A stretch of DNA of 64,000 bases from Isurus oxyrinchus (GCA_026770705.1 JANJGN010000023.1:37944001-38008000), one strand, 5' to 3'; counted from the stretch's first letter, positions 809-57,160 are shown. Numbers and translations are program-made. Notes: generated from the letters alone by a model not told the origin.

Positions 809-1026
809 ATGGCAGTGGCCCATGTCATAGTGGTACTGCTGCTTTATAGACATCTTTATATTGGTCTAATGCAAACCGCCACAGAGAACACAGAGTCCCA
901 GAATGCCTCCTGCCCCATTTTGTGCACCTGTACCTCTTGGCTGCTATCCTGCATTGGGGCTGGGAAATGGCACCAACTGGATAATGTGCCATTCATCAGA
1001 GGGTCATCATACATATTCAACACCCT
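809..1026 (+). CDS. LRRC37: LRRC37-like coding exon 1: signal peptide + LRRNT cysteine cap
   Basis: ATG at 809 in good Kozak context (aatATGG); hydrophobic VIVVLLL; CPILCTC...LSCIG...L..VP....IFNTL cap; donor CT|gtaagt at 1026/1027 in phase 2, joining exon 2 as CTG (Leu). Confidence 0.85.
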
Positions 1027-1659
1027 GTAAGTATCAGAACAAGTCAACTGTATGCAGTGACAATATTCCTGAGAATTATTATTTACATAATTTGTGAGTC
1101 CTAGGAATGAGTATTTCTTAGATTTCAAAAAGGTGACTACTAATTTAGCGGCAAGAGCAATTTGAACTAATCAATAGTACTGGTTTGACCACCAGACTAA
1201 AATTTACTAATTGTCTAGATCTAAATAATGAAAGAAATTCTATTGAAAAATTGCTGTATTTTGGTGTTCAAACTCAAATCTACCCATAGGATGTCTTAGA
1301 ACTGCCCATATGGTGAGATGCCTCACAACACTGAAATCTCACATTTTAGGCTGGGTTTCAGCTTACTCAATTTGGAAACATTAATTTCTACCGAAGCTGA
1401 AGAAAAACACAGCTGGCTTGAAAGTAGTGTCAGTACATTTGCCTTGCAGTGCAAATTTTTGTTTCTTTCCTTTTTGCTCACAAGGTTAAGTTCTGATGAG
1501 AATATGGTATTTGTCCCTACAAGTCACACCCTTCTCTCAGTTTCTTGAGATGTTGCAACCATTACCTTATCTAGAGGTCCATCCCAGTATTGATCACTCT
1601 ATATGAACAGTTCCTGATGTCATTCCTAGACTTTTCACATTTTTAAAAATAGTTTCATA

Positions 1660-2090
1660 CATGAATTAGTGGTAACAGTCCTGCCTTTGAATCAGAAATT
1701 TTTGGGTTCAGGTCCCATTTCATGATTTGAGCATATAATCTAGACTGGTACTTCAGTGTGTACTGAGAGTGTGGGACTTTCAGATGTATTGTTTTTCAGA
1801 TGTAAAGTCAAGGCCTTGTGTTCCCAGATGCGCATGGCGCTATTTTGAAGAGGAGCTTGTAAGTTGTCCCTGTGTTCTGGCCAGTTGTTATCCCTCAACC
1901 AGCCTCACTAAAAGCAGATTATCTAGCCATTATCACATTGTTGCCAGTGGACCCCTGCTCTACACATATTGGCTACCACATTTGCTATATTACAATAGTG
2001 ACTACATTTGAAAAGTACTTTATTGGCTGTAAAGCACTTTGGGATAATGTCCTGTGATCATGAAATGTGCTATATAAATTTGTTTCTTTT
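1660..2090 (+). mobile_element. tRNA-derived DeuSINE (SacSINE1-like)
   Basis: tRNA-like head (agtggtaac...gggttcaggtccc), central domain (tatccctcaacc...cagattatct...tatcacattg), tail aaagcactttggga...gctatataaat; homologous to copies at ~3465 and ~44308. Confidence 0.75.
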
Positions 2091-2614
2091 CCATTTGTCA
2101 GGTTTAACTTCAAGTAATATTTTAGATTAACAGTTTCTACTCATACTATTTGTCTAATTGAATACTTTCGGGAAGCCTATTTAAATAACTATGCATAGAC
2201 ATTCCCTGTCCATTTCTTTACCCTTTACAAATCCATGCTGGCTCTCTCTGATCAGCTGAAAAATTTCAAGGTTCAGTTGCTTAACCATTAGCTATAGACT
2301 ATAGCAACTTCTCAACAGGCCTTAGGCTAAATGTTCCATAATTCCCTGGTTCCCCTCTGCCACCTTTCTTAAACAACAGAATGATATGGACAATTTTCCA
2401 GCCAAAAGGATTTTGACATACTTTCACTCCAGTGGGGTCTGCCTATCCTCATTTACATTATCAACACTTTACAGATTTTTCTTCAAACCTTGCAAACGAT
2501 GTCAAATTCATTAAGTTTAGACGAGCCCCTTTCTTAATTGAATACAGAAGGAAGAAATTATTTATTATTTTAACTGTTTCCCTACTTTCAACTCCATTTA
2601 CAACCTTTGTTTTT

Positions 2615-3270
2615 TATATTCATGGCTGCATGAACTGGCAATGCCAGCATTTGTTGCCCTTGAGAAGGTGGTGGCGAGCCATCTTCTTGAACCACTACAG
2701 TTCATGTAGAAGGAAATTCCAGTTTTTGTCCAGTGTTAGTGAACGGCTGGCTATGCAGTTCCTAGTCAGGGTGATGTATGACTTGGAGGGAATTTGCAGT
2801 TGATGGTGTCCACATGAGTCTTCGCCCCTAATTCTTCAAGGTGGTAGAGGTTGCAAGTTTGAAGGATGCTGTTGAAGGAGGCTTGACAAATTGCTGCAGT
2901 GCATCCTGTGGATGATACAAACTGATGCCGCTGTGCATCGGTGTTGGAGGGAGGAATTTTATGTTGGTAGATGGGGTGCCGATCAAGCAGGCTGCTTTGT
3001 TTTGGATGGTCTTGAGCTTCTTGCTTATTGGAGCTGCACTCTATCAGGCAAGTGTAGAGTATTCTGTCATACTCCTGAGCTGTGCCTTGGAGATTGTGGA
3101 CAGGTTTTGTGGAGTCAGGAGGTGAGTTACTTGCCACAGAATTCCCAGAGTCTACACTGTCTCTTTAGTCACAGTCTTTATATGGCTGGTCCAGTTAAAC
3201 TTCTGGTCAATGGTAAGTCTCCAGATGTTGATGGTGGGGGATTCAATGACGGTAATGTCATTGAACGTCA
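2615..3270 (-). mobile_element. LINE family B (CR1/L2-group) 3' fragment
   Basis: Homologous to the 14390-14993 fragment that encodes a LINE ORF2 C-terminus. Confidence 0.75.
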
Positions 3271-3464
3271 AGAGGAGATTCTCCTTTGGTCATTTGTCTG
3301 TAGTGTTGGAATAATTTGTTACCGTTATGTTTGAATTGTACTGTTGTGATCAGTTCCAATTTCCTTTTGGTCATGATTATTTTCTTTTACATTTTTTGAA
3401 GTTTTCTATATTCTTTCCCATAGTTTTCTTTATCTTTCCCCTACATGGGTATCCGTATCCGCTC

Positions 3465-3893
3465 TGACTAAAAGATAGCACTCTTGCCCCCAAGTTGGAA
3501 GGTCAAGTCCCACTCCAGAAATTTAAAAATCTAATCTAGGCTGACATTTTAATACAGTGCTGAGCAAATGTTGCATTATTAGAGGTGCAATTTTTCTATG
3601 AAACATTAAGCTAAGGCCCTTTCTATGTTCTTAGATGAAAGGTTTCACTATTTAAAGAGTAGAAGATTTCTCTAGGTGTCCTGGCCAATATTTATGCATC
3701 AACTAACACTGCTAAAACAGATTATTTTGTCATATATTTCATTGCTGTTTGTGAGACTTTGCTGCATGCAAATTGGGTGCTTTGTTTCCCTCCCTTAACA
3801 TTGTGATTATGCTTCAAAGATATTTAGTTAGCAGTAAAGTGCTTTGGGATGTTTTGAGTTTTTGAAATGTGCTTTAGACATGCAAATTCTTTC
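3465..3893 (+). mobile_element. DeuSINE copy
   Basis: gtgtcctggccaatatttat...cagattat...attgctgtttgtg...gctttggga...atgcaaattctttct. Confidence 0.75.
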
Positions 3894-4639
3894 TGCATAT
3901 CTTGTTTCTCTTTCTCATTTCATGTATTTTAAAATTAGTTAATCAGGGTTCCCTTTATTATAGTATGCTTACTAGCTCTTTATTTACTGTACTTGCTCAG
4001 TAGTATACCCTCAATTGAAATTTTCTTGAGCGCTGCCCTGTAGTAGATTTGTTTAAACCCTTTTCTCATTCCTTGAAGTTGGTGCTTTTAAAGTTGTGCT
4101 TGAGCACTGCTTTGCATATTGATTTATGCCTGATCAGTACAAATACAAGACCTCCCCACTGATCACACCAAGTTTAATAGTGTAATGAGTGCTGTCATAT
4201 TGTGGTGCTATGATTTCAGTTTCTAAAATGCATTTTGCCATTAGCAATTAAATATGTTAATCCTCATGTCATCCCTAGCTCAGTGTGTCAGAAGCAGTCA
4301 GGGATTATGTTAATAAACTCTGATACTCTGTTGCTTGGGCATTCCATGTTTATACCAGGTTGGTTGAAATTCTTTATTAGTAAGATCTTTTATTTTGCAC
4401 ATACTTCCTTTATTCTTCATACAGTCATCTGTCATTTTTTAAATTTTGAAACAATAGCATATGGCAAAGCCAGAGTTGTTATTGTTCCATTCACATGACT
4501 TTCAGCTTGTTAAAAACAGATCCTGTATTCTGTCTATCATCCATTGCACTGTGCTTTTCTCCAACTCACTGCCCAACTCCTTCTCCATATTAAAGGTTTA
4601 TTTTTTTTCAACATACATTATATGTTCAGCTAGAGTATT

Positions 4640-4910
4640 TTGTCTAATCCTGGGCACCACTCTTTAGGCCTTTGAGAAAGTGTAAAAGAGATTTACTGGA
4701 ATTGTACCAGGGAGGAAGTATTTAAGTTTTGTAAAGAGACATGAAAAACTGGGAGCAAGGAAGGTTATGGGGAGATTTAATGGAGGTGTTCAAAATTATA
4801 AGGGATTTTGATAGAGGAGATAAGGGAGAAACTTTTTCCATTGGAAGAATGATCAGTAACCAGAAGACACAAATTTAAGATGATTGGCAAAGGAGCCAGG
4901 ATGAATATAA
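4640..4910 (+). mobile_element. CR1 ORF2 C-terminal fragment
   Basis: Homologous to the 3' part of the other CR1 copies (gaggtgttcaaaattat...ggacacaaatttaag type). Confidence 0.65.
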
Positions 4911-4915
4911 AGAGA

Positions 4916-5051
4916 ACAAAAGCAAAATACCTAGATATTAGAAATCTAAAATAAAAAACAGAAAATGATGGAACTACTCAGCAGGTCTGGCAGCATCTGT
5001 GGAGAGAGAAACAGAGTTAACATTTCAGGTCACGGACCTTTCTTCAGAACT
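4916..5051 (-). mobile_element. Micro-PLE (pLTR end) with hammerhead motif
   Basis: Homologous to 54683-54818; minus strand reads AGTT CTGAAGA A AGGTC cgt GACCT GAAA TGTT AACT (5015-5051). Confidence 0.75.
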
Positions 5052-10800: not shown

Positions 10801-10894
10801 TGTTTAGACATTAATAGGCTTGCTACACATAATTATCATTTTCTGCTTTTAGTCCAATTCCTTCCTTATTTATCTTTTGAGTCTGGGGATTTAT

Positions 10895-11395
10895 TAATGG
10901 GAAATAATGAGATGGCAGATGAATTGAACAGATATTTTGCATTGGTCTCCAGTACAGAGGATATAAGTAACACCCCAGAAAGAGCTGTAAATTAGGAAAT
11001 GGAAGAGAGGGTAGAACTCAAGAAAATTATAATCACCTGGGAAGTGGTATTAAGTAAATTGTTGGAGCTGCGTGCTGACAAGACCCCAGGACTTCACCCT
11101 ATGACCTTAAAAGAAGTGGCTAGTGAGATAGTAGATGCGTTCATTTTAATTTTCAAAAATTCCCTAGATTTGGGGAAAGTAGAGAATGTAACTCCTTTAT
11201 TCAAAAAGGGAGAGACACAGGAAGCAGGAAACTACAGGCCAGTTAGCTTAACATCTGTCATAGGGAAAATGTTAGAAGCTATTATTAAAGACAATATAGC
11301 AGAGCACTTGCAAAAATTCAAGATAATCAGGCAGAGTCAATATGGTTTTGTGAAAGGGAAATCATGTTTAACCAATTTATTGGAATTCTTTGAAC
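10895..11395 (+). mobile_element. CR1 ORF2 fragment
   Basis: ORF 10999-11421: NVTPLFKKG..AGNYRPVSLTSVIGKMLE...QYGFVKGKSCLTNLLEFF. Confidence 0.85.
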
Positions 11396-12479
11396 CATAT
11401 AATATCAATGTCGAGTGTTGAAATCCTGAGAAGATTTCTGAATATGTGTTATTTTTCTCCGCATTTCAACACTTGCTATTGTTATTATATAGCTCATTGA
11501 TTCTGTGCATATGCATTCTGGGTGAATAGGCATCGGACCATGGAGGAGCCCATGGGAGGTGGGTGAGGGGGTGTGAGGGGCAAGGGCAAGAAGGCCTAAC
11601 TGCTTTTAATACAGCTGGGACAAAACCCTAGAGAACCAAGGCAGGCCTTCTAACCAGCCCACCTTGGATCTTGCCTGCCCCCATGGCCACCTACAATCTG
11701 TTTCTGGGATCAGCAAGCATGACTCTATTGAACAGTCTCCCCTGAGGGAATATGGGTTGTAACATGTCTGTTTTCACTGAGGCGGGTCTGCTGAGTCAGG
11801 AAAATTCCCAGTCTGGGCTACCTGCTTTGGTAGCGAAAATCCAGCCCATTGTCTTTGCTTTGATGTTAGAATCAAGGTAAATGTTTTGTTCTTGATTTCA
11901 AATCAAAGACCCCAAACTGCTCAGAAACATATATTAGAAATAGGGGTGCAGCATTTTGGGTTTTGGGTCAGGACCCTGAGCAGCAGAGTGAAATGGGAGT
12001 CACAACCCCGCACTCTGTAGGGAACAGTCACCTGGCAGTGATTTTCCCTGAATTGGCCAATTAGTGGCCAGAGGGTGGGCTGGCTGTCCAGTTAAGGATG
12101 GGAGGTTGGCTCTCAAAGCTGAAGAGCCAATAGGAGGTCGTGCAGCTCAGGAGAAGCAGCAGACTATCTTTTTAGGTTAAGAGAGAAAGCAGATTCCTCA
12201 ACTCAGGATGGAGGTGACCTCTCTCCAACTTGTTAAAATTTTAAATAAGAATTGCCCTTTGCAGCTGATTCACCATTTTGGAGGGAGATAGGGGTTGGGG
12301 TGCTGGGAGCTAGGCAGGTGGGAAGGGCCTCAAGGCCATCCTGAATTAGTGCTCCTCCTTTCCCCCAGCCCCCCAACTGTCTGTCAGGAGGCCACCTCTA
12401 GTCACTGATGCCTTGGGGGCCCAGAGGCCAACTGAAAAAATCAAGTTGGCTTCTGACAATAGGAGCACAGGAGCATTGT

Positions 12480-15360: not shown

Positions 15361-15576
15361 ATCTTTCTTTGACCTAATGCAATCTTTAACTTTTTTTGTT
15401 AAGCACTGTTGATTTACCATTCCAGTTGGGTTTTTGTGTCTTAGAGGAATGTATATTTATTTTCGACCATGTGATTAAGTACTTTAAGTACTAGCCATTG
15501 TCTCTGTCTACTGTCAAATTTTTAGTGTATTTTCCCAATCCACCATAGCCAACTTGCACCTCATACCTTCGTAGTT

Positions 15577-15677
15577 CTGTCGAAGGGTCATGAGGACTCG
15601 AAACATCAACTCTTTTCTTCTCCGCCGATGCTGCCAGACCTGCTGAGTTTTTCCAGGTAATTCTGTTTTTGTTTTTG
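15577..15677 (+). mobile_element. Micro-PLE of the young Neptune family, 10-bp TSD
   Basis: Nearly identical to 57227-57320; TSD cttcgtagtt (15567-15576) / cttcatagtt (15678-15687); begins at the hammerhead core. Confidence 0.85.
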
Positions 15678-17224
15678 CTTCATAGTTTCCTTTGTTCAGA
15701 TTTAAGACCCTAGTTTCAGAATGAACAATATCACTTTCACACTTAATGTAAAATTCTATCATATTATGGTCACTATTTCTTAAAGGTTCCTTTTCAGCAA
15801 AGTAATTAATTAGCCCTTTCTCATTACATAATAGTAAATCTAAAATAGCCTGATCCCTTGTTGGTTCTTCAATGTACTGCTCCAGAAACCCATCTTGTAC
15901 ACACCCCAGGAATTCATCCTCCACAGCATTAGCACTTTTACCCAGTGTATATCTAAATTGAAATTGTCCATTATTGCTGTATTACCAATACTACATGCAT
16001 CCCTAATTTCCTGATTTACTCTGTGTCCAACGTTATCACTACAGCATGGTGTCCTATAAACAACTCCCACCAATGTTTGCTGCCCTCTGCTGTTTCTTAG
16101 CTTCACCAAAACTGATTCTGCATCTTGATCTTTCAATCTAAGATCCTCTCTCTTGACCATTATTAAAAGTGCTACCCCAGGTCCTTTTCCTTTTTGCCTA
16201 TCCTTCCTAAATGACAAATATCCTTGAATATTCAGTTCCTGGTCTCAGTCACCCTGTAACCACATCTCCATAATGGAAATTATATCATACCCATTTACCT
16301 TGATTTGTGCCTTCAAATCATCCACTTTGTTGTGAATGCTTGTGTTCAGATAGAGTGCCCTTAACTTTGTCTTTTTAACCCATTCATCTTGTATAGGTCC
16401 CTATCTGATGCTTGCCTTTACTTCATTAGCCTCCTAATTCCACTTACTACTTTTCTACTGCCTGATACCAGTTTTGCTTCCCTCCAATCTGAACTCCCTC
16501 TCAGGTTCCCATCCTCCTGCCAATCTAGTTTAAACCCTTCCCAACAGCACTAGCAAATCTCCCTGTGAGGATGTTATTCCTGGTCCTGCTAAGGTGCAAC
16601 CTATTCATCTTGTATAGGTCCCACTTCCCCCAGAACCAGTCCCAATACCTCAGAAATCTGATGCCCTCCCTCCTACATCAATTCTCCAGCCACGTGTTCA
16701 ATCGCTTGATCCTCCTCATGCTCTCTAGCATGTGGCACTGGGAATAAACTTGGGATTACTGCTTTTGAGATCCTCCTTTTTAATTTCTTTCCTAACTCCC
16801 TAAAATCTGCTTTCAGGACCTCATCCCTCTTTCTACCTAAGACATTTGTACCAATGTGGACCACATTCTCTGGCTATTCACCCTCTCCCAGAATAATGTC
16901 TTGCAGCCGCTCTGTGACATCCTTGACCCTGGCACCAGGGAGGCAACACACCACCTTGGAGTCACATCTATGGCCGCAGAAGCGCCTGTCTGTTCCCCTA
17001 ACTAACAAATCCCCTATCACCTTTGATCTACCACTCTTCTTCCTCCCCTGCTGTGTCGTTGAGCCACCCGTGATGCCACGGACTTGGCTCTTGCATCAGT
17101 GGCCATTTAACCTACTTAATTAATTACCCACTGCTTATAGGCGGGTAGTCCTGCCGCCGCACCTTTCACCACCACGCCTTCAGCTCAGGGTTTCAACAGT
17201 GTTTAGGGGATTTTTCTTTCATAT

Positions 17225-36100: not shown

Positions 36101-37669
36101 TTAACTCTCCACTTATCCCGTTTACCAAAACTTTAGCTTTCGTTGAACTCTCTGGAGGGAAAACTAGGTCTTTCTCCAACAAAAGTGTTTGAGTAGTTCC
36201 TGTGCCTCTTAATATAGTTATGGGTTGCATCATTCGATGAAAAAGGCGTTATCTTCCCTTTGGACAAAAACCCTTTATATCTCTCATCTACCTCATTTAC
36301 TTCACCTGCATTCATAGCAGTGTTTACCTCCAGGCCCTTATTTGTAGTTAAAGCTACAATTTGATCTGTGGCATTTTCTTTTTGAGTTCCCTTTTCAGAT
36401 TCATTCTTATCATTTCCAATAAGTCCCATGGGCTTCCCTCACAACCTCTAGCATTCTGAACGAATGTGTCCCACTTTATTACAATGGAAACACTTAAGCC
36501 TTTGAGTTTCACCTCCACCCTCAGTACCTTTCTCCTGATCTGGGGAGGAGATCTCGAGGTATTCCCAGCTATCCATTCTTTACCCTGGCTACCTGCCTTC
36601 CTTTCACTCTCCCACTTTCTACCCTTTTCAAATTTATGGGGATGATGGAAAAAAATGTTTAGTTTATGGATCAGCTCATAATTGTCAGCCATTATTGTTG
36701 CCTGTCTAGCAGTTACAACCCTTTGGTCTTCAACATGGGTTCTTATTACAGAAGGTAGGGAGTTTTTAAATTCTTCCGAGAGAATTGTCTCTCTGAGAAC
36801 TTCATAGGTCGTTTCAACTCCTAATGCTCATATCCACCTGTCAAAACTACCTTGCTTAATCCTTTCAAATTCAATGTAAGTTTGCCCAGGCTGTTTCCTT
36901 AAATTTAGAAACTTTTGCCTGACGCTTCAGGGACCAACTCATATGCTCTAAAAATGGCCTTTTTCACCAATCATAATCCCTAGAAACCTCCTCTGAGAAA
37001 TTTCCTGTGCTGTACCTGTCAATTTGCTCTGCTTGGGCAACGTCCAATTTTCCTTTGGCTCGTTCATCTGTTTAGCTCGCTTCTGAAATGAAATAAAGAA
37101 TACTTCAACATCCCTTTCCTCAAATTTTAGTAGAACTTGTTCAAATTTAAACATTTTTTCACTGGGTTCTGATCTGGAAATAAGTCCTGCCTCACCTACT
37201 GGTGTCCCTTTTTTAACTGTCAGCATTTAAAGCTGGAATTCTCTGTCTTTCTCTTTTTCTCTTTCTGTTTTTTCAAGTTTATATTTCTTCATTTCTATCC
37301 TCGCCATTTCTAATTCATTTTGAAATGCTCTCTCTCTTTCCTTTTCTTTTTCTTTCTCTGCCCTTTCTGCCTTTCTCTTTGAAATGCCTTTTCTTTTCCT
37401 GCTGCCTCCAGTTCAAATTTTTTTATTTACAACTGAATTTGAGCCCATTCCAATGAACCACCCCTTGGAGAACTCAGTATCTCGGGTATTCCTTCCAATT
37501 TCAAATGCTGTGCCATCTCTTCAATTACCTCTGCCTTCCTAGCTTTAGCAGGCAATCCTATTATTAATTTACTTGCTAATTCGATTAACCTGGCTTTTGG
37601 GAACCCTTTTAAAATTGTCAGGGTCATCTCTTCTATTTGCAGGAAAGCTTTAACAGTTTCCAGTGCCAC
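33179..37669 (-). pseudogene. Gmr1 gag-pol pseudogene (frameshifts and stops)
   Basis: Gag FEERDVEVFF..LTGTAQE; CFHCNKVGHIRSEC; IN H..H..C..C and PFSQVLVDC; RT KIDLLKGYWQVPL, IYLDN; RH YSTVEKETLA. Confidence 0.9.
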
Positions 37670-37785
37670 CTTATTTTTGACAGTACAAAACTGGTGTTTC
37701 CTTTTAGCTGTTATTACTTACTAAATCTACACAAATTGTTGTTGTCTTTTGTTCCAAAATATCCCTGACCCGAGCCCCCAATCTT

Positions 37786-39109: not shown

Positions 39110-39525
39110 AGGGGAGACAGTGGCATGTTGGTAATGTTAATGGACTAGTAATCCAGAGACCCAGACTAATGCTCTGGAAACATGGGCTCAAACCTCACTG
39201 CAGCAGCTCGTGGAGTTTAAATGCAATTAATTAATTCATAAATCTGGAATTGAAAGGTAGCCTCAGTAATGGTACCATGAATCTATCATCATCCGGTTCA
39301 CTAATGTCTTTTAGGGAAGGAAATCTGTCATCCTTACCTTGTCTAGCCTACATGGGACTCTAGGCCCACAGCAATGTGGTTGACTCTTAACTGCCCTCTG
39401 GAATGGCCTAGCAAGTCACTCAGCATACCAACATTGCTACATAAACCAATGGATTGCAGTAGTTCAAGAAGGTGGCAACAAATGCTGGTCTTGTTAGTGA
39501 TGCCCACGTCCTGTGAAAGAATAAT
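39110..39525 (+). mobile_element. tRNA-derived SINE family 2
   Basis: Homologous to 21287-21520; ends atgcccacgtcctgtgaaagaataa. Confidence 0.75.
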
Positions 39526-39619
39526 GAAAAAAAGTCAGTAGCAACATTAGTGTGTGTCAAACACTGGGTCTGTTAAATATATCATTGACTGTTTAACATT
39601 TTTATTTTTTTCCCCAAAG

Positions 39620-39691
39620 GGAATTAGGTGAAAATGATATCACTTCTATCCAAGAAAGTAATTGGTTACCCTACAGATGGACAGAAGCCTT
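39620..39691 (+). CDS. LRRC37: LRRC37-like exon 2 (72 bp, LRR1: ELGENDITSIQESNWLPYRWTEAL)
   Basis: Polypyrimidine tract + aag acceptor; gtaagt donor; 72 bp, phase 2-2, no stop. Confidence 0.92.
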
Positions 39692-41869
39692 GTAAGTCAT
39701 TTATTTTATTAATACCCATTCACCTTCTTTTGAACACTGTAGTACCAAATTATATAAAGCAATTGCAATGTTTGTGAATCGATGAAAGAGTTGGAGGTCA
39801 AAATGTGTGATCAAAAATGGTGCCCCTTTACAACCAACTTGTACAATGACTCCTCATAGGCTTGTGTTGGGCATTTGTCAGTTCAACGCTTAATCTCAGA
39901 TAATGCAGCTCTGGAGAAGGAATTTTTAAAAGTATTATCTGGACTCTCTTGGAACACAACAGTTCTGCCTCAACTGGCAAGATTGACGCCAATATTGATT
40001 AAGTTGAAGGTGGGGTAAACCATCTGGCACTTTCAGTCTCATGCATGAAAGTAACTGGGTGGGAGGGAATGAGAGCTTTAATCTTGAAGTGCCTGGGAGG
40101 TGTGGCTTAGAATCTAGGAGAGAACAAAAAGGGCACAGCTGAGGTCTGAGGAGAATGTAACCTAGGTCTTGGTGCTGAAAGAGACAAATGAGCAGAACCT
40201 AATGGAGCTAGAGGGAGTAGTGGCTACAGCTCTGTGAGAAACTGTGGAGTCAGGGTTGTGACCTGAGCATTTATAAGCGTGATAATATGTTGTATGTAGT
40301 TAAAGTGGTGCAATTTGCATTATTATTTAATGCATTATTTGTGAACATTATTTGCCTGTGATGTAGCTCCACTTATCTTAATTCTTAGTCTCACTTTGGG
40401 CCTAAAGTTACAAACATATACCAAATTTAAATTTGCTTTGAATGTAGCCTCACCAATTGGAAATTGTAGTATACTTGGTGGACGGTCAGTCTTGCTGTCA
40501 ATTGTTGAAAAGATCTGGTGTTTATTCCCAATTACAAAGTTTCAAAATGTTGGAACAGAGCTGAATTCAAGCCTCCAGATTCAAAGAGAGGCATACTTCT
40601 CCAGTGAAACTACTTGGAGGCATTTCTAATGCACAATTACTACCTTTATGGGAAGGTTTAAGATATTTTTTCAGTTTTTTTTCATGTTTATGATGTTATA
40701 AGTTTAATGGCTAGGAGTATGTAATGGAATGGGTGAGGAAACAACATATGTCCTTTGAATGGAATTTCAAAAAAACTTGCTGTGTTTATGACATGTCTTT
40801 TGGGATTTATAACTTTGTCAGTTTATTATCTTATAAATTGATTGACATTTGAAATCACTGCTTTTAATGTAGTTTGGTTGGATCTTTGCTGATATATAAT
40901 TTAACAAACTAGTGCATTTAAGTTGTTTAATTGAGCCAGTGAGAAAAAGCAACACCTTTTCTACCATATGTGAACAGGATTAATGTGCCACCAATATGTG
41001 GTCACTCTGGAGGTTCTCAAACTTTTTTAGTTGAAGACACCTTTTCAAATGATTGCCAATTATGTCCCCCCATCACCTAAATTATACTATAACACACAGA
41101 ATGCAAAAGTGTTGCGTTTACAAAGGGTCCTCCTAATGCCTTTAAGAAAACAGGTTCTTACAGATAGCAGTAAGAAGGTTGTGTCTGCTTCTTACTGCTG
41201 AGTTTGCAGGAGTACGGAGTGAGCAGAAGGGGACTAGAACCTAGGGAAGCAGTCCCCAGGAAGAGCAGGAGCACAGGGAGAGCAGAGCACACCTCCGGCT
41301 GCTGCTCACCCGCCCTGCTTTTGACTATGTTGCCTATTTGTATGGACTGTCCTGCATATCCATCCTCTTAGTAGGACTCCTAGGATCTCCACTGGTCAGC
41401 AGACTGCACTTAGAGAACTACAGGAATTGTACACAGCGAGTGAAAACTAAATGTGATCTTGAAATGAAGTGGGTTCAAAAGGTGGAGTACAATCAGCCAG
41501 GGCATGCAATCATAATTTACTTCCCATTGTAAACTCATGCATTATGTCCTTATTTTTATACATTTCTTTGTTTTGATATGATATGATTTGATTTGATATG
41601 CAAAGCATGTGGGAATTTGGAAAACATGGAATTAGAAATGTTTGGATAAGTATCTTTGCAATACAGCCTGAAGAGCCAGGAAAGTAACCTCTGGTCTATC
41701 AAAGTAGGAATTTATAATGGAAAGGCACATAAATATAATATTTTAAAATGCTATGATATATTTTAGGAAATTTATGAACATTTTGAACAATATAATTGAT
41801 TGTCTTTCTAGTGGTTGCAGTTTGTACATTGGCTGAGTTCTAATGAAGACAAAAATCGAGATGGGAAAA

Positions 41870-42480
41870 ATGCAATTAGCGCCATTTCCCCATCTGCTCC
41901 CATAACTCTGTACATTCTTCCTTTTCAGACAATAATCCAATCCTCTCTTGAATGCTCCACCGCTGTCTCAGGCAGTGCATTCTTGACCTAAACCGCTTGT
42001 TGCATGAAAAGGTTTCTCCTCATGTCTCCATTGCTTCTTTTGCCAATTAACTTAAATCTGTATCCTCTCATATTGACCCTTCCACCAGTGGGAGCAGTTT
42101 TTCCTTATCTACTCTGTCCAGACTCCGCATGATCTTGAATACCTCTATCAAATCTTCTCTCAACTTTCTCAAAGGAAAAGGATCTCAACTTCTCCAGTCT
42201 ATCTACGTAACTTGCTTATCCCTGGAACCTTCTCGTGAATCCTTGCTGCACTCTCTCGCATGCTTTCACAACTTTCTGCAAGTGCAATGCCCAGACTGGA
42301 TTAAATACTCCAGTTAAGACCAAACCAGTGTTTTAACATAACCTCCTTTCTTTTGTACTGTATGCCCCTATTAATAAAGCCTGGGATACTGTATGCTTCA
42401 TTAACCACTCTCTCAACCTGTCCTGCCACCTTCAGTGACTTATAGATGTAGATCCAGGCCCTTCTGCTCCCGCACCCTCT
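41870..42480 (-). mobile_element. CR1 3' fragment
   Basis: Homologous to 48936-49710. Confidence 0.7.
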
Positions 42481-42881
42481 TTAGAAATTGGCAAAAAAAA
42501 TTTTCAGCATTCACCTTGGAATATATGACTGTTGCAAGTTGAAAGATAATCAGTTCTGAAACCATTCTAGATATTGTACAATACTAAAGGCAGTTATACA
42601 ATGCATTGATATTGTTTGTAAGTATAATATTTAGCAGATAATTGTCAGACTTAATGCCCCCTGGGAGAAGCCCTGTCTTTTGGCAGCATATATTCAAAAC
42701 ACAAGTACGTAACGGAAATCATATGGAATGCACTTCTTAATTCTTGATCTGCACTCTAGGTTAATGAGGCTGTCCTGGGAGCACAAAGTTGGATAATTAC
42801 TCACTATGTTTATCGAGTGGATTTTAAAAGAAATCCGGACAGGCATTTTAATTTGACTTAGAGAAGCCTCATTTTAACTTA

Positions 42882-43542
42882 AGGCTAGAATATTGCCGTC
42901 GGTGTGCAGGGACAGGCTCAACACACCGATGTGTAAAATGACGCAAATGATGTCGGGTGTGCGTCCCGACGTCATCACACGTCATTTCCATCTTTTGTTT
43001 GGCGGGCGCACAGCCGACACTGGCGCACACCCGCCAAACTGTCAACGGCCAATTAAGGCCATTAAAAACGTAATTAACCATATTAACAATGCTGCTCATC
43101 AAACCTTAAGGTTGGCGGGCAGGCGAAGAGCCCAAGCTGCCTTCGCGTTTTTCAGGAAACCTCATCCACGGGCGGGATGAGGTTTCTTGAAGGTTTTAAA
43201 AAGTAATTGAATAAATTTTCAAAACTTCACAAGCATGTCCCAGCTCATATGACACTGTCACATGATGTGACATGTTTAAATAAATTTTCACTTTATTTAT
43301 TAAAAAGTTTGGTTGTCAACTTAATCTCAGGGAGATTGCTGTGCTCTTTTATGAACATACGTGAAAGAGCGCAGGCCCCCCAACTCTCCCTCCTCTCCCA
43401 GCCCACACAGGTAGCGCTGAGCACTACTGGCCGCGCATTATGCTGTGTGGGCCTTAAAATGGAGGCGCACAGCTGATCATGGGTTTCGCGCCCACCCACG
43501 CCTGCTCCTGAACAGCCCACCCACCAACTGAAAAATTCACCC
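42882..43542. mobile_element. Harbinger-derived MITE with TTA TSD
   Basis: Degenerate TIRs (aggctagaatatt / aaaattcaccc), tta on both sides; left ~300 bp is the reverse complement of the Harbinger right ends. Confidence 0.75.
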
Positions 43543-43824
43543 TTAAGTGTTTTCATCAAATATCATGTGACGGATTTGTCACTATGTGCAGGGATGCCAT
43601 AAGTAATTTATTGAATATCTTCTCTGTTTGGTATTTTTAGAAAAATGGGAGTGAAGATTTTGCTAAAAATCCAGAATAATGAAAATCTTCCTGAATGCAG
43701 TTGTACACATAGCAACCACAGGAATCACCATCCTGTGTAGCTTGTTTGAACTATCCTCAGAAATTGATCAGTTAGATGTTTAGCATATAAGTTGATATTT
43801 TAATTGTTGTACAAACTGTTTTAG

Positions 43825-43896
43825 AGATCTGCATGGAAATCAACTTGACACACTACAGAAGGATTCATTTGAAGGGCTCATTTTAGTAAAGAAATT
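43825..43896 (+). CDS. LRRC37: LRRC37-like exon 3 (72 bp, LRR2: DLHGNQLDTLQKDSFEGLILVKKL)
   Basis: ttttag acceptor, gtaagt donor, LxLxxNxLxxLxxxxFxGL consensus. Confidence 0.93.
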
Positions 43897-44307
43897 GTAA
43901 GTATAGCTATTAACTGTTAAACAAATCATTTTCAATTGCTTATTTCAAACTTCCCATTTTGTTAATTGTAAATATTATTCAACAGTTAAAGAGACCAAAT
44001 GTAAAATAAATGTGTAAATTTTCTAAAGGGATTAAGCATTTTTACTTAATACTCAGTGACTGTTTCAAGAATTCTTATGTCAGAGATGAGGTGCTACTTT
44101 CCCAACAATATATTTCAATTTCAGCCTGAGAACATGATCCCATTCTCCACTGTTGAATACCTTACACACCATATCCTATGCTTGCCATCCATGCAAATTC
44201 TTGAGGGGAATTGAGCTACTACCACTGAATTTGGGAAGAGTTATATTAGGAAGTATTCTGCTGAGAATGTGATTTTTAAACTGGAACTGAATATTCAGAT
44301 TTCTGAG

Positions 44308-44730
44308 AGAGAGCTGTGGCTCAGTGGATAACATTCTTGCCTCTGAGTTAGAAGGTTCTGGGTTCAAGTCCATCTTTAGGGCCAGAGTGTAAAAATCAAG
44401 GCTGATAATTAAGTGCAGGACTGAGGGAGCACTGCACTGTAGGAGGTGCTGTCTTTTGGATGAAATGTTAAACTGAGGCCTCCTCTGCCTGCTTGAGTGG
44501 ATGTAAAAGACCCCTTGGCTCTTTTTCGAAGAAGAACGAGGGAGTTGTCCCAGTGTCCTGGCTAGTTATCACATTGCTGTTACTGGGAATTTGCTGAGCG
44601 CAAATCGGTTGCTGTGTTTCCTACATTACAACCGTGACTACATGTCAAAAAGAACATCATTGATTACAAAGCGTTGAGAGACATCCTGTGGTCATTAAAA
44701 GTGCTTTGTAAATGCAAATCTTTTCTTCCT
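44308..44730 (+). mobile_element. DeuSINE copy
   Basis: gctgtggctcagtgg...gggttcaagtcc head, Deu-like core, taaatgcaaatctttt tail. Confidence 0.78.
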
Positions 44731-45330
44731 TTTTTTCTTTGCCAGATGTATACCAAGATCTCAGTGGTGAATGAGCCGCATTCTTACCCAATATTTGCCC
44801 TTATTCTATACATTAATTCAACCATCTGCTGTAGTGCTCCGCTGTTCGGCTTCACAGTTTCTATTGGACTTTATCCAGTGATTGGTTGTTACTTTCAGCA
44901 AGTATTCTCTCTGTCCTGTACCCCGCAGGAGAAATGTGTGATGATGTTTCTTGGGAGTACTTAATACAGTACAGACTTATAAGTGTAGTCATCATTCATT
45001 CTATTAGGTTCAGGTAGCTCCACTAGGTGCAACACTATTTGCAGTTCCATTGTGTGTGATGCCAGACATATGTTGTTACCATTATCAGGCTCATTGGTCC
45101 ATTCCAGTGGGACAATATAGCTCTTCAGTCTAGAACTTTTGAAAGTATATTGAGTCAGATCAAACGTAAATAACTGTATGCTCTTTCTATGTCCATAGCT
45201 TTGTATAGAAGTAATAACCTACAAGTGCTTTACCACAGAGTTATACAATGGTTGTGCACTGATTGTTATGGAGCATTTTTGGATTTTCAGGCGCAACATT
45301 ATTGAACAGTTTGTTTTTATTCCAACATAG

Positions 45331-45402
45331 GAATCTTTCTCAAAATGCCATCGTGAAAATTGCAGGGTATACATTTCAAGCTCTACCTTTCCTGGAAACT
45401 CT
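45331..45402 (+). CDS. LRRC37: LRRC37-like exon 4 (72 bp, LRR3: NLSQNAIVKIAGYTFQALPFLETL)
   Basis: catag acceptor, gtgagt donor, LRR consensus, phase 2-2. Confidence 0.93.
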
Positions 45403-47414
45403 GTGAGTTTTAGTATTCATTTTGAAATATCTAAGAATCTAGTGCAGTATACATATCAGGAAAGGGTGAAGAGGCTGGGTTTCTTGAAAAAAGAAGGCTG
45501 AAGGGGTGATGGAATAGACGTCTTTAAATTTAAGAAAGATTTTGATACGGTAGTTGCAGAGAGAATGTTTCTACTTGTGAGGAAGAGCATAACTCGAGGC
45601 CATCAGTATAAAATAGTCACCAAGATATTGAAATTACAGTTGTTGCAGGAGATTCCAGAATCAGGGGGACAGACAGGCATTTCTGTAACAGTTTTCATGA
45701 GTCCCGCATGGTGTATTGTTTCCCTGATGCCAGGGTAAAGGACACCACAGAGAGGCTGCGGAATATTCTTCTAGAGGAAAGGAGTGAGACAGAAGTTATG
45801 GTAAATATTGTTACTGATTACATAGAGCGGGCAGGCATTGAGATCCCAAGGTCAGATTTTCAGGAACTAGGAAGGAAGATAAAAAGTAGGACCTCAAAGA
45901 TCTCTGGGTTACGCCCAGTGCCACACACTATCCAGAGTAGAAATACAAGATAGGGAGGATTAATATGTGGTTAGAAATATGTTGCAGGAGGAAGGGCTTC
46001 AGATTCTTGGGGAATTGGGACCAATTCTGGGGTAAGAGGCACCTATTCAAATAAAACAGATTGCACCTCAATAAGACTGGGACCAATGCCCTCATGGGGA
46101 GGTTCACTAGTGTGGTTGGGGAGGGTTTAAAATAAATTGGCAGGGGAATGGGCACCAGGATACAGAATTAGGGAAGAGGAATAAAGTGCATAAATTGAGG
46201 GTGTTGGGCAGTACTGGAGAAAGATGTAGTTCCGTATTAGACAAGAGTGGACTAAGAAAGACTACTGGGAATGCAAAGATAGGATTACAATATATTTGTA
46301 AATGCACACAAAGTTCGTGAACTACAAGCTCAAATAGCCTTGTGGGCATTTCATGTGTCCGAAATAACAGAAATGTGGCTTAAAAGTAGTGCGAATGGGG
46401 TGCTTAATATCCAAAAATATAGAGTGTTCAAAAAAGATAGAGAATAATAAAAAGGAGGTGGTGTGGCTGTACTGATTAGGGAAGACATTGCAGCATTGGA
46501 AAGAGGGGATGTCCCTGAGGGAACAAGGCCAGAATCCATTTGGTTAGAGTTCAGAAGCAAAAAGGGTATGATTGTGCTACTGGAAATATTCTATAGGCCT
46601 CCAAAGATTGAGAAAGAGAGAGATAGAGGAACAAATCACAGAGATATGAAAGAACTAAAGAGTGATGATATTGGTGGTCTTTAATTGCCCAAATATTGAT
46701 TCGGAAATTGTTAGAGAAAAGGGGAAAGTGGGATGGGGAGGGGAGTTTCTGAAATGTGTTGAGGAGAACTTCCTTGATCAGTATGTTCACGGCCCAACTA
46801 GAAAGGAGGCATTGCTGGATCTGTGGTTGGGAAATGTGGTGAGCCAAGTAGACCAAGTGTCTGTGGGAGTACTTGGGTAAGAGTGATCATCACATCATAA
46901 AGCTTAGATTAATAATGGAGAAAAGCAAGGAACAATATGAAGTAGAATGTCTAAATTGGAAGAGGGCTAATTTCAATGGGATGAGAATGGATGTAGCCAG
47001 GGTAAAATGGAATTAAAGACTAACAGGAAGAACTTTAACAGAACGACGGATGGCCATTAAGGAAGAGTTGCTTCAGGTTCAAAGAAGGCACATTTAAACA
47101 AGAGTGAAAGGCAGGGGGGAACCGAAAACAGGACTCCTTGGATGACAAGGGAGATAGAGAATATGATGAAATGATAAAAGAGGTTTATGATGTATGTCAG
47201 ATGTATTCTTCATGTGAGAACCATGTTAAATACAGTAGGTTGAGAGGGGAGGTGAAGAGGAAAATAAGACTGGCAAAGAGAGAGTATGAGAATGGAATGG
47301 CAGTCAAAATAAAAGGGAACTGAAAATTCTTTTACCAGCATGTAAATAGTAAGTGGGTAACAAGAAGTTGAGTGTGCTCTATTAGGGATAAAGAAGATGA
47401 AATATGCCTAGCAC

Positions 47415-47875
47415 AGCAGGGTAGAGGTTGCCTCCTTCAATAGCCCCCTTCCAATATCGGGTGCACCTCCCTCCACCCAGCCCAAAAAGGTCTGGCTCTT
47501 GCAGGTGCTCCCTCCCCTACTGGTGTCTCCAACAACACCCCTACCTCCCACCTTTCCTTCCCGCCCTGAGACCCCACACTCTTCTGGTCCTTGACTCCTG
47601 AGACTTAGATTCTAGGGACTGCTTATAGTCCCAGTCCTATCCATTGCAGTTTCTGGTGCTGCTGGGACTAGAGAGCTACCGGCCAATCATATTGTCTGGC
47701 AGTTCGCTGAGGTGTGACTTCCTCTCAACTGAGGGGGCAGAAGTCCTGCCACCATCCCATTAACATTCTTTGGAGCATCAAATGGCTGCAGGACAACCAG
47801 TATCAGTGGCAATGTGTTCCCCATTGACTCCTCAGATGGTGGGAAAGGAAACTCCGCCATCCAAAAAACCTTGGC
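47415..47875. mobile_element. Unclassified GC-rich insertion (probably DNA-transposon derived) in CR1
   Basis: Interrupts CR1 ORF2; CR1 homology resumes at tgagtacttcgcatcc (~47880). Confidence 0.45.
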
Positions 47876-48935
47876 CAGTGAGTACTTCGCATCCATGTTT
47901 ACTAAGGAGGAGGAATCTGGCAAATATTGGTAAAATTGGAGATAGTAGTGGGTGAAAATTGAGAGCGAGGAGGTACTGGAAAGGTAAGCTATACTTAGGC
48001 TAGATATGTCACCTGGTCCGATGGCTTGCATCACAGGTTGTTGAAGGAAGTGTGGGTGGAACTAGCGGAAGGGCTTGCCATAAATTTCCAATCTTCCTTA
48101 AATACGGGGGAAGTGCCAGAGGATTGGAAAGTGACAAATGTGACACCCTTATTCAAGGAAGAAGGTAAGGACATTCCTAGCAAATTTAGACCAGTTAGTT
48201 TAATATCAATAGTGGGTTAGGTTTAGAAACAATAAGTAAGGGAAAAAAAACAAGCACATGGAGAGGCTTGAGTTAATCAAGGAGATCCAGCAAGGATTTT
48301 TAAAAAGCAGCTCATATTTGACTATTCTAATTGAATTTTTTGATGATGTAACAGAGAACATTGATGAACGGAATGCGACAGATGTTGTCTATATGGCTTT
48401 TAAGAAACTGTTCAACAAAGTACCACATAAAAGATTGGTTAACAAAATTAAGGCTCGTGGAATAGAAGGGTCAGTTTCTAATTGGATAAAATGTTGGCTT
48501 AAGGACAGAAAGCAGCATTGGTTATTTTTCAGACTTGGAAATGGTAGAGAGTGCCCAAGGGTCAGTGCTAGGTGGCTGCTTTTTTCTTGCAATATATAAA
48601 TGACTTGGATTTTGGAATACAGAGTAGAATTCCACAATGTGCCGATGCTGCCAAACTTGGAGTGGCAAACAGTGATGATGATACAAATCACCTGCAACAA
48701 ACTGAGAGCAGAATAGACAGGCAAGTGGCAAATTAAATTTAATATGGAGAATTGTGAGGTGATGCATTTTGGAAGAAAGGATGGGGAGAGGCAATATATA
48801 CTTAACGACACAATCCTCAAAAGTGTGCAGGAACAGAGGGACCTGGGGGTGCATGTGCATCAATCTTTGAAGGTGGCAGGATATATTGAAAGAGTCATTA
48901 GAAAAGAATATAGGATCTTGACTGTCATAAATAGA

Positions 48936-49710
48936 GAATCATAAAATCATAGTATTGTTATGGTGCAGAAGGAGACCATTCACCCCATCAGATCTGCACT
49001 GGGTCTCCAAATGAGCATTATGACTCAGTGCCGTTTTCCTGCCTTTTCCCCATAACCTTGCAAATTGTTTCTGTTTAAATAATCATTTAATGACCTCTTG
49101 AATGCCTCGATTGAACCTACCTCCACCACACCTTCCAGGCAGTGCATTCCAGACCCAAACCACTTGCTGTGTGAAAAAGGTTTATCTCACGTCACATTTG
49201 CTTCTTTTACAAATCAGTTTAAATTTGTGCCCTCTTGTTCTTGATGGCTTTACGAGCGGGAATAGTTTCTCGTTACCTCCTCTGTCCAGCCCCCTCATAT
49301 TTTTGAACACTTCTATCAAATCTTCTCTTAGCCTTTTCCTTTTCAAGGAGAACAGTCCCAACTTCTCCAATCTATCTTTATAAGTGTGGTTCTTCATCCC
49401 TGGAACCATTTTCTGCACACTATCTAAGGAGTTTACATCCTTCCTCAAGTGCGGCACCCAGAACTGTACACAGTACTCCAACTGAAGTTTAACTAGTGTC
49501 CTTTACATATTCAACATAACCTTGCTCTTGTGCCTATTAATAAAGCCTGGGCTACTGTATGCTTTATTAACTGATCTCTACACCTGTCCTGTCACCTTTA
49601 ATGACTAATGTACATACACACCCAGCCTCTGCTCCTGCACACCCTTTAGAGTTGTACCCCTTTTTTTATGTTGTCTCTCCATGTACTTCCAACCAAAATG
49701 AATCATGTCA
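48936..49710 (-). mobile_element. CR1 3' fragment inserted antisense in CR1
   Basis: ORF 49182-49481 EYCVQFWVPHLRKD...LEKLGLFSL..RLREDLIEVFK. Confidence 0.85.
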
Positions 49711-51608
49711 CCGAGGCATCAAGTACACAAGCATGGCAGTTATGCTGAACAGTTATTAAGCTCTGGTTAGGTCCCAGCTGGAGTTTGCATCCAGTTCTGG
49801 TCACCACACTTTAGGAAGGATGTGCAAGCCCTTGAAAGGGTGCAGAAGAGATTTACCAGAATGGTTCCAGGGATGGGGGATTTTTATTACAAGGTTAGGA
49901 TGGAGAAAATTGGGTTGTTCTCCTTAGAGCAAAGGAGATTGAGGGAAGATTAGATTGAAGTGTACAAGATTAATACAAGGACTAGGGATCACAGATATAA
50001 GGTTTTGGGCAAGGTACGCAGGGGGAATGTCAGGAAGAACTTTTTTACATAGTGAGTGGTAGGTAAGACCTAGAAGTCACTGCCCACAAGGGTGGTGGAA
50101 GTGAAAACAATCGATGGTTTCAAAAGGAAATTGGATTGTCACTTGAAAGAAATTAACCTGCCTACAGGGATCAAACGGGGAGTGGGACTGACTGGATTGC
50201 TTCAAGAAGAGCTGCATGGACTCCATTGACTGAATAGCTTCCTTCTGTGCTGCAAATGACTCTATGACTCTAAATCCATTGGGGAATTCTGAAGAAGCTT
50301 CTGTATCCAAAGAATGTGGAATTTGCTACCATAGAGAGTATTGAGGCGAGTAGCATAGATGCATTTTAGGGGAAGCTAGACAAACATATGAGGGAGAAGG
50401 GAATTGAGGGTTACAGTGATGAATGAGGAAAGATGGAAGGATGCTCAACTGGAGCTTAAACACTGGCATGGGCCCATTGGACCAAATGTCTGTTTCTATG
50501 CCGTATATCCTTCATAATTCTATACAGAATTGTTGTATAGTCTTTGTGATTCTAGTAGTATAATAGTCAACATAGTTCTAGACTTAATCTGTGCTACTTT
50601 GTTCCTGAAATAGTAACGTTTACTTGTCTTTGGCTCAGACAGGAGGTCGTTTAGTATTCTTTAGGAATCATTGGGCTGACCTTTCCAGACTTAAAACATT
50701 TTCAGCCAATTGAGCTGTTATCAGAACCCAACCTCATTTGCAGCACCAGTGTTGCTTCCTGTTAAATGTTCCTGAAGTTGGCCAATTAATTAGGAATGGG
50801 GGACAGCTTGTTAAAACAGGAAGTCGATTCAGCGTATCTCCATTGTAAGAGTAGCTGCCAGCCTTCACTGTATCTGCAGTGAGAGTGCTACTGAGGGGAA
50901 TGTAGCAGGAGAGATAGGGGTTTAATGGAGGCACAATCAGCCTGATGAGAGCAGCTGTCACTGCATCACCTCCAGCTCTATTGGAGACACCGGTACCCAG
51001 GAGCTTCTCACGCAATGACAAGACTCTGTCAGCCAACCAGTGGAAAGCGCCGACAACGTGCACACTCCCGCCACAAAGAGGCCTAAGTCATTTTGAGGCC
51101 CAGGCCTCATTCATCTACAATTGGTGTGCTGAAGGTGCTAAAAGGCTTTCCAGTCTCGTCAGACTCCAGCTAGCACAATATCAGGGGGCAGCCCAGCCAG
51201 CAGCAAGGTGAGGAAGGAGGAAGCACCCCTGTTCCCCTTCGTCTCTCAACGATAATTTAAAACTTATCTTTTCAGGGCCTCTTCTGTTCTGTCATCAGTG
51301 AAAAAAGTTGTAGCGTGCAAAGCACATTCTCTAACCTGTTTCAGGCTGAAAAGTTAACCGGGATCCTTTGTACTGTACATGGGAGTGCGATTTGTAGATT
51401 AATGGAGCCTGCCACCTACCACAGAAGTGTTCATTGCATAATTTGCAATCGCAGAGTGAAAGCACAGCATACTTCTCCTCTGAGAGTGCATTTAATAGTG
51501 TTGTATTTTCACTTTAATAAACATCACAAAAATAAGCAATCTATAGCAATAAAAATTTAATAATGCTCAAGAAATTGAAGTCCCCTTTTTTTGCGGTTTA
51601 TTGCACAG

Positions 51609-51689
51609 CGATCTTTCTGAAAATAAGGTATCAACGCTGCTTGATGGAACATTCAAATCCTGGCATGGATTACGTTTCTTTAGACAATT
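51609..51689 (+). CDS. LRRC37: LRRC37-like exon 5 (81 bp, LRR4: DLSENKVSTLLDGTFKSWHGLRFFRQL)
   Basis: cacag acceptor, gtaagt donor; 27-aa LRR with the GTFxxWHG insertion I recall as characteristic of LRRC37. Confidence 0.93.
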
Positions 51690-51747
51690 GTAAGTGTGAT
51701 ATCAGCAACTTAAATCCTTTCTCCAACAATAAGACATTCTTTTTAAA

Positions 51748-52060
51748 ATAAAAGAGCAAAATACCGTGGATACTGGAAATCTGAAAGACAGAAAATGCTG
51801 GAACTACGCAGCAGGTCTGGCAGCATCTGTGGAGAGAAACTGAATTAATGTTTCAGGTGGATAACAGGCCATTGACCCAAAATGTTGACCGGGATTTTCC
51901 TGGGGATCCTGTGGACCAGCCAAAAGTCCATTGACTTTCCAGGGGACCAGAAAATACTGGCAGTGGGCGGGGCCAGAAAATCCCAGCCAATTGTTCAGTT
52001 TCTCTTTCCGCAGATGCTCCCAGACATGCTGAGCATTTCCAATGTCTTTTTTTCTGATTT
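51748..52060. mobile_element. Hairpin micro-PLE in LRRC37 intron 5, interrupted by a ~100-bp MITE
   Basis: Inverted arms cagcaggtctggcagcatctgtggaga / tttccgcagatgctcccagac. Confidence 0.7.
51887..51988. mobile_element. Small Harbinger-type MITE
   Basis: TIR gaccgggattttc / gaaaatcccagcc. Confidence 0.6.
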
Positions 52061-52216
52061 TAAAATACTTTGTATCATAATAGTCACAGTCCTGAGTGCA
52101 ATATTCAGAATTTGTATTTTTAAAAATTTACTGTGTCAGTTACTGACAAAGAACCTAAATATTTTCCTTGAACATTTTCTGTCATGATTTCTTTCATTTT
52201 TCCTTCTATTTAACAG

Positions 52217-52288
52217 GAATTTGAAGTCAAATCCATTAGAAGTAATTGAGAATGATGCTTTTGATAAATTGCCCTCAATGCAGTACCT
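52217..52288 (+). CDS. LRRC37: LRRC37-like exon 6 (72 bp, LRR5: NLKSNPLEVIENDAFDKLPSMQYL)
   Basis: aacag acceptor, gtgagt donor, LRR consensus. Confidence 0.93.

Positions 52289-57129: not shown

Positions 57130-57160
<31 letters not shown>

What the first reader, a model, noticed from the sequence alone, without database searches (positions are those of the whole stretch)
809..52288. Intact LRRC37-like receptor gene in an apparently chondrichthyan genome, largely invisible to the ORF track
Seen in sequence: five 72/72/72/81/72-bp exons spread over 51 kb splice without stops, with consensus splice sites. From my recollection, the motifs W..Y.WTE.L, KDSFEGL, LPFL and GTF..WHG are those of LRRC37A/B, a family studied mainly as a primate core duplicon and usually discussed as amniote. 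Inference: if this genome is a shark, the family dates to the jawed-vertebrate ancestor with the same exon architecture.
Basis: partly seen in the sequence, partly recalled or inferred. Interest (0 to 1): 0.75.

Follow-up and report, generated by a model that had tools for sequence, protein, structure and literature searches.

The report
Shark LRRC37 sperm-protein gene, already annotated
This is the first six exons of a shark's LRRC37 gene, a real and already annotated member of a family known across jawed vertebrates, which likely makes a sperm-head (acrosome) membrane protein as it does in mice.

Summary
The gene is real but not new. Six exons (218/72/72/72/81/72 nt, all phase 2, GT-AG) give 195 codons without a stop. 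The product is 190/195 identical to a Scyliorhinus canicula protein that NCBI already names LRRC37A-like. The exon 5-6 joint appears in contigs of a related species, from one sample. Reciprocal search, a tetrapod-only profile (163 bits against at most 64 for 60 other LRR proteins) and a tree place it in LRRC37. A 2026 preprint already reports LRRC37A in cartilaginous fishes. Only about a fifth of the coding sequence lies in the window, so 'intact' is untested. Two side results: (1) the long exon-1 region looks therian, since shark, amphibian, gecko, bird and platypus models put the signal peptide next to the LRR cap; (2) every named non-amniote hit of an exhaustive C-terminal search comes from an internally fertilising lineage, and the only frog named is the tailed frog Ascaphus. 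Against (2), a 286-aa 'LRRC37A-like' protein is reported in sturgeon sperm, and I could not test it. Likely role: acrosomal single-pass LRR membrane protein (inferred from mouse).

The parts
809..1026 (+). Coding exon 1: ATG, hydrophobic N-terminus (predicted signal peptide), Cys-rich LRR N-cap; no long repeat region
   Evidence: In-frame TAA at 803-805 and A at -3, G at +4; 99% identical over 72 aa to P0001/P0002; donor GTAAGT
39620..39691 (+). Exon 2, LRR unit (24 aa, W..Y.WTE.L motif)
43825..43896 (+). Exon 3, LRR unit (24 aa, KDSFEGL motif)
   Evidence: a sawshark isoform model lacks exactly this unit
45331..45402 (+). Exon 4, LRR unit (24 aa, LPFL motif)
51609..51689 (+). Exon 5, long LRR unit (27 aa, GTF..WHG motif)
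   Evidence: covered edge to edge by contigs in runs X5 and X6
52217..52288 (+). Exon 6, LRR unit (24 aa); the gene is expected to continue beyond the window
   Evidence: joint 51689>52217 (skips 527, GT..AG) in X5 and X6

Best explanation
The window holds the first six coding exons of the shark LRRC37 gene, which likely encodes a single-pass membrane protein of the sperm acrosome that would organise ion-transport partners there, as mouse LRRC37A does. Shown here: exon structure, open frame, family membership, and splicing of exon 5 to exon 6 in a related species. Shown for the 97%-identical catshark protein: LRR domain, LRRC37AB_C domain above the Pfam cut-off, and a hydrophobic helix near the C-terminus. 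Inferred: the signal peptide would send the protein into the secretory route. The capped LRR solenoid would face the lumen or the outside and bind partner proteins. A long low-complexity stalk with a conserved R-V-[RK]-R site would let a proprotein convertase release the LRR part, while the helical domain, membrane helix and tail stay in the membrane. Testis expression, acrosomal location and Na/K-ATPase binding are borrowed from mouse and are untested in sharks.
For: Exons and frame. Spliced contig. The top 78 of 151 BLASTP hits among stored non-chondrichthyan proteins are LRRC37; a tetrapod-only profile gives 163 bits against at most 64.3 for 60 outgroup LRR proteins; the family clade has UFBoot 94 and its main splits follow the species tree. 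PF14914 scores 97.6 bits against a cut-off of 27 in P0002. The AlphaFold2 model has pLDDT 83-95 over residues 71-150 and a helix at 833-868, with top matches to extracellular LRR receptors. R-V-[RK]-R occurs in 7 of 8 chondrichthyan proteins, and human LRRC37A is cleaved and released (PMC3530683 passages). Mouse knockout males are infertile; the protein is acrosomal and binds ATP1A1/ATP1A4 (preprint sections 5, 9, 11). Mouse expression is testis-specific (PMC3371713 passages). A protein so named is found in sturgeon sperm (PMC11291920 text and supplements).
Against: No tissue is on record for the runs laid, and 'RNA' is the tool's guess. The splice evidence is one joint from one sample of another species. 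The C-terminal four fifths of the gene lie outside the window. The shark LRR region changes slowly (branches of 0.01-0.14 against up to 0.69 in tetrapods), which is unusual for a sperm-only protein (own knowledge). The preprint notes a competing structural role for mouse LRRC37A. Mean pLDDT of the whole model is only 46.5.
Confidence: 0.62

Rival explanations
1. It is an LRRC37 orthologue with a mainly somatic or neuronal role in sharks, such as an LRR receptor for FGF13-like ligands that tunes sodium channels, and the sperm role is secondary.
For: The LRR-containing fragment of human LRRC37B and LRRC37A2 bind FGF13A (PMC10754148 passages). Conservation among chondrichthyans is strong, 87% shark to skate over 195 aa.
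Against: SCN1B binding needs the simian LB domain (residues 133-186, upstream of the LRR), for which the shark exon 1 has no room. Broad and brain expression is described as gained in primates from a testis-specific state.
Confidence: 0.15
2. It is an acrosomal protein acting as a structural anchor between the acrosomal membrane and nuclear envelope, or in binding the egg coat, and not as an organiser of ion pumps.
For: The preprint cites two other reports of a structural role and shows reduced zona binding (I did not see those two reports). Sharks probably lack the mammalian ATP1A4 isoform (recalled, no call).
Against: [quoted passage not shown]
Confidence: 0.18
3. It is a decaying or truncated copy (pseudogene) in this species.
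For: The downstream exons are not visible, and transposons fill 53.9-61.5 kb.
Against: There are no stops, all splice sites are canonical, and only 5 of 195 residues differ from the catshark protein. Long repeat-filled introns are the rule here (intron 1 is 38.6 kb).
Confidence: 0.03
4. It belongs to a different LRR family (LGR, LRRC32, Slit, TLR, chaoptin type).
For: Single exons hit only generic LRR_8, below its cut-off. PDB hits are other LRR receptors, and none of the 60 listed sequence hits is an LRRC37.
Against: Profile, reciprocal hits and tree; PF14914 in the near-identical protein.
Confidence: 0.01

Closest known systems
NCBI LRRC37A-like proteins of Scyliorhinus canicula (P0002; its X2 isoform P0001 carries LOC119954549), Amblyraja radiata, Pristiophorus japonicus, Narcine bancroftii and Hemitrygon akajei
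   Same: Same start, same collinear 195 residues; 97.4% identity to S. canicula, 86.7% to skate.
   Different: Five substitutions against S. canicula; no protein of exactly this sequence was returned.
Mouse LRRC37A (bioRxiv 10.64898/2026.09.11.751093)
   Same: Same family. The window product is about 41-42% identical to rabbit and mole LRRC37A proteins over 170-180 aa; the mouse sequence itself was not compared.
   Different: Placentals carry 15-18 PF15779 repeats before the LRR (rabbit, mole) and the shark has none. Function is shown only in mouse.
Human LRRC37A and LRRC37B (PMC3530683, PMC10754148)
   Same: Signal peptide and LRR N-cap in exon 1, one LRR unit per small exon with the LxxLxLxxNxL motif split by a junction, and a C-terminal membrane helix.
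   Different: Human exon 1 is 2612 or 1690 bp; the B type has an LB domain that binds SCN1B; the human genes are multi-copy core duplicons.

Membership tests
LRRC37 | LRR region closer to LRRC37 than to other LRR families | tested here: met
   163 bits against at most 64.3 on a tetrapod-only profile; first outgroup at rank 79 of 151 BLASTP hits; clade UFBoot 94
LRRC37 | One LRR unit per small exon, 24/24/24/27/24 residues, junction inside LxxLxLxxNxL | tested here: met
   (12 of 13 other proteins keep all five lengths; one caecilian isoform lacks unit 6). Human junction placement is from the text of PMC3530683; tetrapod intron positions were not read from DNA.
LRRC37 | Signal peptide and LRR N-cap in exon 1 | tested here: met
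   Hydrophobic N-terminus (Kyte-Doolittle 9-mer means 2.5-3.1) and Cys cap aligned with tetrapods; no signal-peptide predictor was run
LRRC37 | LRR C-cap, LRRC37AB_C domain (PF14914) and membrane helix | tested here: inconclusive
   Outside the window; met in the 97%-identical catshark protein
LRRC37 | Testis expression and acrosomal location | not testable with these tools
   Runs carry no tissue record
LRRC37 | Conserved synteny with the tetrapod locus | not testable with these tools
   No genome is held, and I recognised no other host gene in the window
Placental A-type LRRC37 | Long exon-1 region with PF15779 repeats | tested here: not met
   In-frame stop 4-6 nt before the ATG; PF15779 in 2 of 12 proteins scanned, both placental
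Simian LRRC37B | LB domain that binds SCN1B | tested here: not met
   Only about 30 residues precede the LRR cap; LB lies at 133-186 of LRRC37B. Judged by length, not by sequence comparison.

The most novel reading that the evidence does not exclude
Membrane-anchored LRRC37 is an ancestral jawed-vertebrate sperm gene kept only where fertilisation is internal (sharks and rays, coelacanth, caecilians, salamandroid salamanders, the tailed frog, amniotes). It was lost or cut down to a short form several times in external spawners (ray-finned fishes, lungfish, most frogs). Since a lost gene is not regained, this would be genomic evidence that internal fertilisation is ancestral in jawed vertebrates and in frogs.
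Probability: 0.2. Interest if true: 0.7.

Novelty: already known. Interest (0 to 1): 0.22.

Why it matters
The gene call itself adds one more shark orthologue to an annotated set. It does show a compact, slowly changing form of a family known for primate duplications, which makes a clean construct for asking what LRRC37 did before its long first exon arose. The open point is distribution. The ancestral mode of fertilisation in jawed vertebrates is unsettled (0.574 for internal in PMC13762310 section 3.2). A gene whose retention followed internal fertilisation rather than the acrosome would bear on that, and a synteny survey could test it quickly.

Tried and rejected
No whole genome is held, so downstream exons and synteny were not examined. 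The run search listed no holder on record as RNA. Laying four runs on 39,500-52,400 was swamped by repeats, and none of the 15 joints shown of 518 was an exon joint. Runs X3 and X4 showed no cover of exons 5-6, which is no evidence either way. The word-based search with the catshark LRR region returned chondrichthyans and generic LRR proteins but no tetrapod LRRC37. The profile search for short forms returned 2 proteins, both chondrichthyan, and missed P0168 and P0176, which are in range. So it is insensitive and says nothing about sturgeon, frog or teleost short forms. A tree run on 138 C-terminal pieces timed out. The FastTree replacement misplaced the coelacanth among mammals, so I used it only to choose proteins to name. 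The ESM Atlas gave one LRRC37AB_C cluster at 0.85, a lead only. No earlier finding of this scan matched. dN/dS was not computed because no orthologous DNA was available. No complex was predicted. Paper searches LRRC37+'internal fertili' (0 papers), Ascaphus+internal fertilization+gene loss+sperm (0), LRRC37+teleost (8 listed of 10), LRRC37+Xenopus+sperm (2, unrelated by title) and LRRC37+sturgeon (1) showed no paper on loss of LRRC37 in external spawners. The library lacks most subscription papers, including the two other LRRC37A reports the preprint cites.

Full report
Observation. The exons are 809-1026, 39620-39691, 43825-43896, 45331-45402, 51609-51689 and 52217-52288, with introns of 38,593, 4,133, 1,434, 6,206 and 527 nt. 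All introns are GT-AG and phase 2, and the 587 nt give 195 codons without a stop. A strict LRR-exon pattern finds 5 sites on +, none on -, and none in 100 simulated windows; the pattern was written after seeing the exons. The five small exons span 12.7 kb; the 51 kb includes exon 1. Nothing beyond residue 196 of two full-length relatives maps convincingly to the window, so about four fifths of the coding sequence lies outside, and no genome is held to follow it.

Identity. Exon 1 alone retrieved 9 proteins among 14 candidates. The 8 named ones are shark, skate or ray proteins, and 3 of them are named LRRC37A-like. The spliced product is 190/195 identical to S. canicula, 188/195 to S. torazame and 169/195 to two skates, so the genome is a shark close to catsharks. 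The catshark protein carries PF14914 (LRRC37AB_C) at 97.6 bits against a cut-off of 27. Against stored non-chondrichthyan proteins, the first 78 of 151 BLASTP hits are LRRC37, led by rabbit LRRC37A3 and mole LRRC37A-like. A profile built from 17 tetrapod LRRC37 LRR domains scores the product at 163 bits, and the best of 60 other LRR proteins at 64. In a 33-sequence tree the family is one clade (UFBoot 94), split into chondrichthyans and coelacanth plus tetrapods. Unit lengths of 24/24/24/27/24 residues hold in 12 of 13 other aligned proteins.

Splicing. In runs X5 and X6 (one sample, a related species, RNA by the tool's guess), one contig each covers exon 5 and exon 6 edge to edge and joins 51689 to 52217 across GT..AG. 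Two other runs laid did not cover the exons. Three of the four listed differences are synonymous by my reading of the frame. The other four junctions were not seen in reads and rest on the NCBI models.

What is already known. NCBI names exist for sharks, skates, rays, a caecilian, axolotl and the tailed frog. [quoted passage not shown] It shows an acrosomal protein needed for male fertility that binds ATP1A1 and ATP1A4. The words amphibian and teleost do not occur in it.

Anatomy and likely working. The ATG follows an in-frame stop by one codon and opens a hydrophobic stretch, and the Cys cap begins about 30 residues in. The AlphaFold2 model of the catshark protein is confident only for the LRR solenoid. 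It shows a long disordered stalk, a low-confidence three-helix region at 696-755 and a helix at 833-868; fold matches are extracellular LRR receptors. An R-V-[RK]-R site in the stalk occurs in 7 of 8 chondrichthyan proteins, and newt, axolotl and caecilian stalks also have polybasic sites (read). Human LRRC37A is cleaved and released in HeLa cells (PMC3530683: section 4 and passages). I infer a type I membrane protein whose LRR head binds partners and can be shed, working at the acrosome. Mouse expression is testis-specific and broad expression arose in primates (PMC3371713 passages). The neuronal SCN1B interaction needs the simian LB domain (PMC10754148: section 8 and passages), which cannot fit in the shark exon 1. 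No shark tissue data were available.

Side result 1, exon 1. Residues before the LRR cap number 18-58 in shark, skate, ray, newt, axolotl, tailed frog, caecilian, gecko, bird and platypus models (one unnamed squamate-like model has 101), 475 in wombat and 1,600-2,200 in several placentals. PF15779 repeats appear in 2 of 12 proteins scanned, both placental. The long first exon therefore looks like a therian addition, and the shark form looks ancestral. This rests on predicted gene models.

Side result 2, distribution. An exhaustive phmmer search with the C-terminal 260 residues found 156 cluster representatives among 1.84 billion, of which 150 were listed. Three were chondrichthyan proteins already in hand. 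Of the other 147 I looked up 30: 21 amniotes, 2 unnamed and 7 non-amniotes (Heptranchias, two caecilians, newt, axolotl, Ascaphus truei, Latimeria). All 140 that are not those 7 have an amniote as their best labelled match; 119 of them are placed by that alone. No ray-finned fish, lungfish, cyclostome or other frog was identified. All seven lineages fertilise internally, and Ascaphus is the textbook internally fertilising frog (recalled, no call). This extends the preprint's remark to amphibians and coelacanth.

Against that reading. Sturgeon spawn externally (recalled) and keep an acrosome (PMC13762310 abstract and section 3.2). The Siberian sturgeon sperm proteome lists XP_034769890.1 'LRRC37A-like', 286 aa, and KAK1159025.1 'LRRC37A3-like' with 337 spectra (PMC11291920 passages and supplement rows). 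I could not retrieve them. A 286-aa protein could lack the part I searched with, so it may be a true short form, a truncated model or a misnamed LRR protein. Clusters at 50% identity hide members, so other frogs or externally fertilising salamanders could sit under the Ascaphus or axolotl representatives. Testis genes are often missed in annotation, six hits were not listed, and my search for short forms missed its positive controls. The pattern is a lead, not a result.

Verdict. This is a real, ordinary orthologue of a known family whose presence in sharks is annotated and published. Interest is 0.22. The most novel reading not excluded, retention only with internal fertilisation, gets probability 0.2.

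Noticed in passing
database proteins P0098, P0133, P0081, P0088, P0079, P0082: The only frog named among the C-terminal hits is Ascaphus truei; the other non-amniote hits are coelacanth, caecilians and salamandroid salamanders. No ray-finned fish or lungfish hit was identified.
   Followed up: partly
PMC11291920 supplements (XP_034769890.1, KAK1159025.1): An abundant protein named LRRC37A-like (286 aa in A. ruthenus) is reported in sturgeon sperm; it may be a short form without the membrane part. Sequence not retrieved.
   Followed up: partly
window 55003-56831 (+): Penelope-like retroelement: a 501-codon open stretch with RVT_1, then a GIY-YIG domain in another frame. It is flanked by repeated ends near 54.7-55.0 and 57.0-57.3 kb and sits inside another transposon.
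   Followed up: partly
window 53900-61500: Harbinger-like DNA transposon: Myb/SANT domain on + at 53921-54382 and a transposase-like stretch on - near 60.0-61.2 kb (read by eye, label recalled). A similar stretch lies near 31.9-32.7 kb.
   Followed up: no
window 35184-36827 (-): Fragmentary LTR-retrotransposon-type remnant in intron 1, with integrase zinc-binding and weak SCAN matches. Described only.
   Followed up: no
window 10996-11418 (+), 15517-16244 (-), 48392-48938 (-): LINE-like fragments; RVT_1 matched only the first of the three stretches scanned.
   Followed up: no
window 51784-51837: A short, very high-copy repeat in intron 5, covered at great depth in all runs laid.
   Followed up: no
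P0001 against P0002; P0004 against P0006: Catshark and skate both have an isoform model 111 aa shorter, which skips the helical part of the LRRC37AB_C domain and keeps the membrane helix; this suggests conserved alternative splicing.
   Followed up: no
PMC5127012 passage: In amniotes LRRC37 sits where fish and Xenopus have intron-containing type I interferon genes, next to ARHGAP27; a useful anchor for a synteny test.
   Followed up: no
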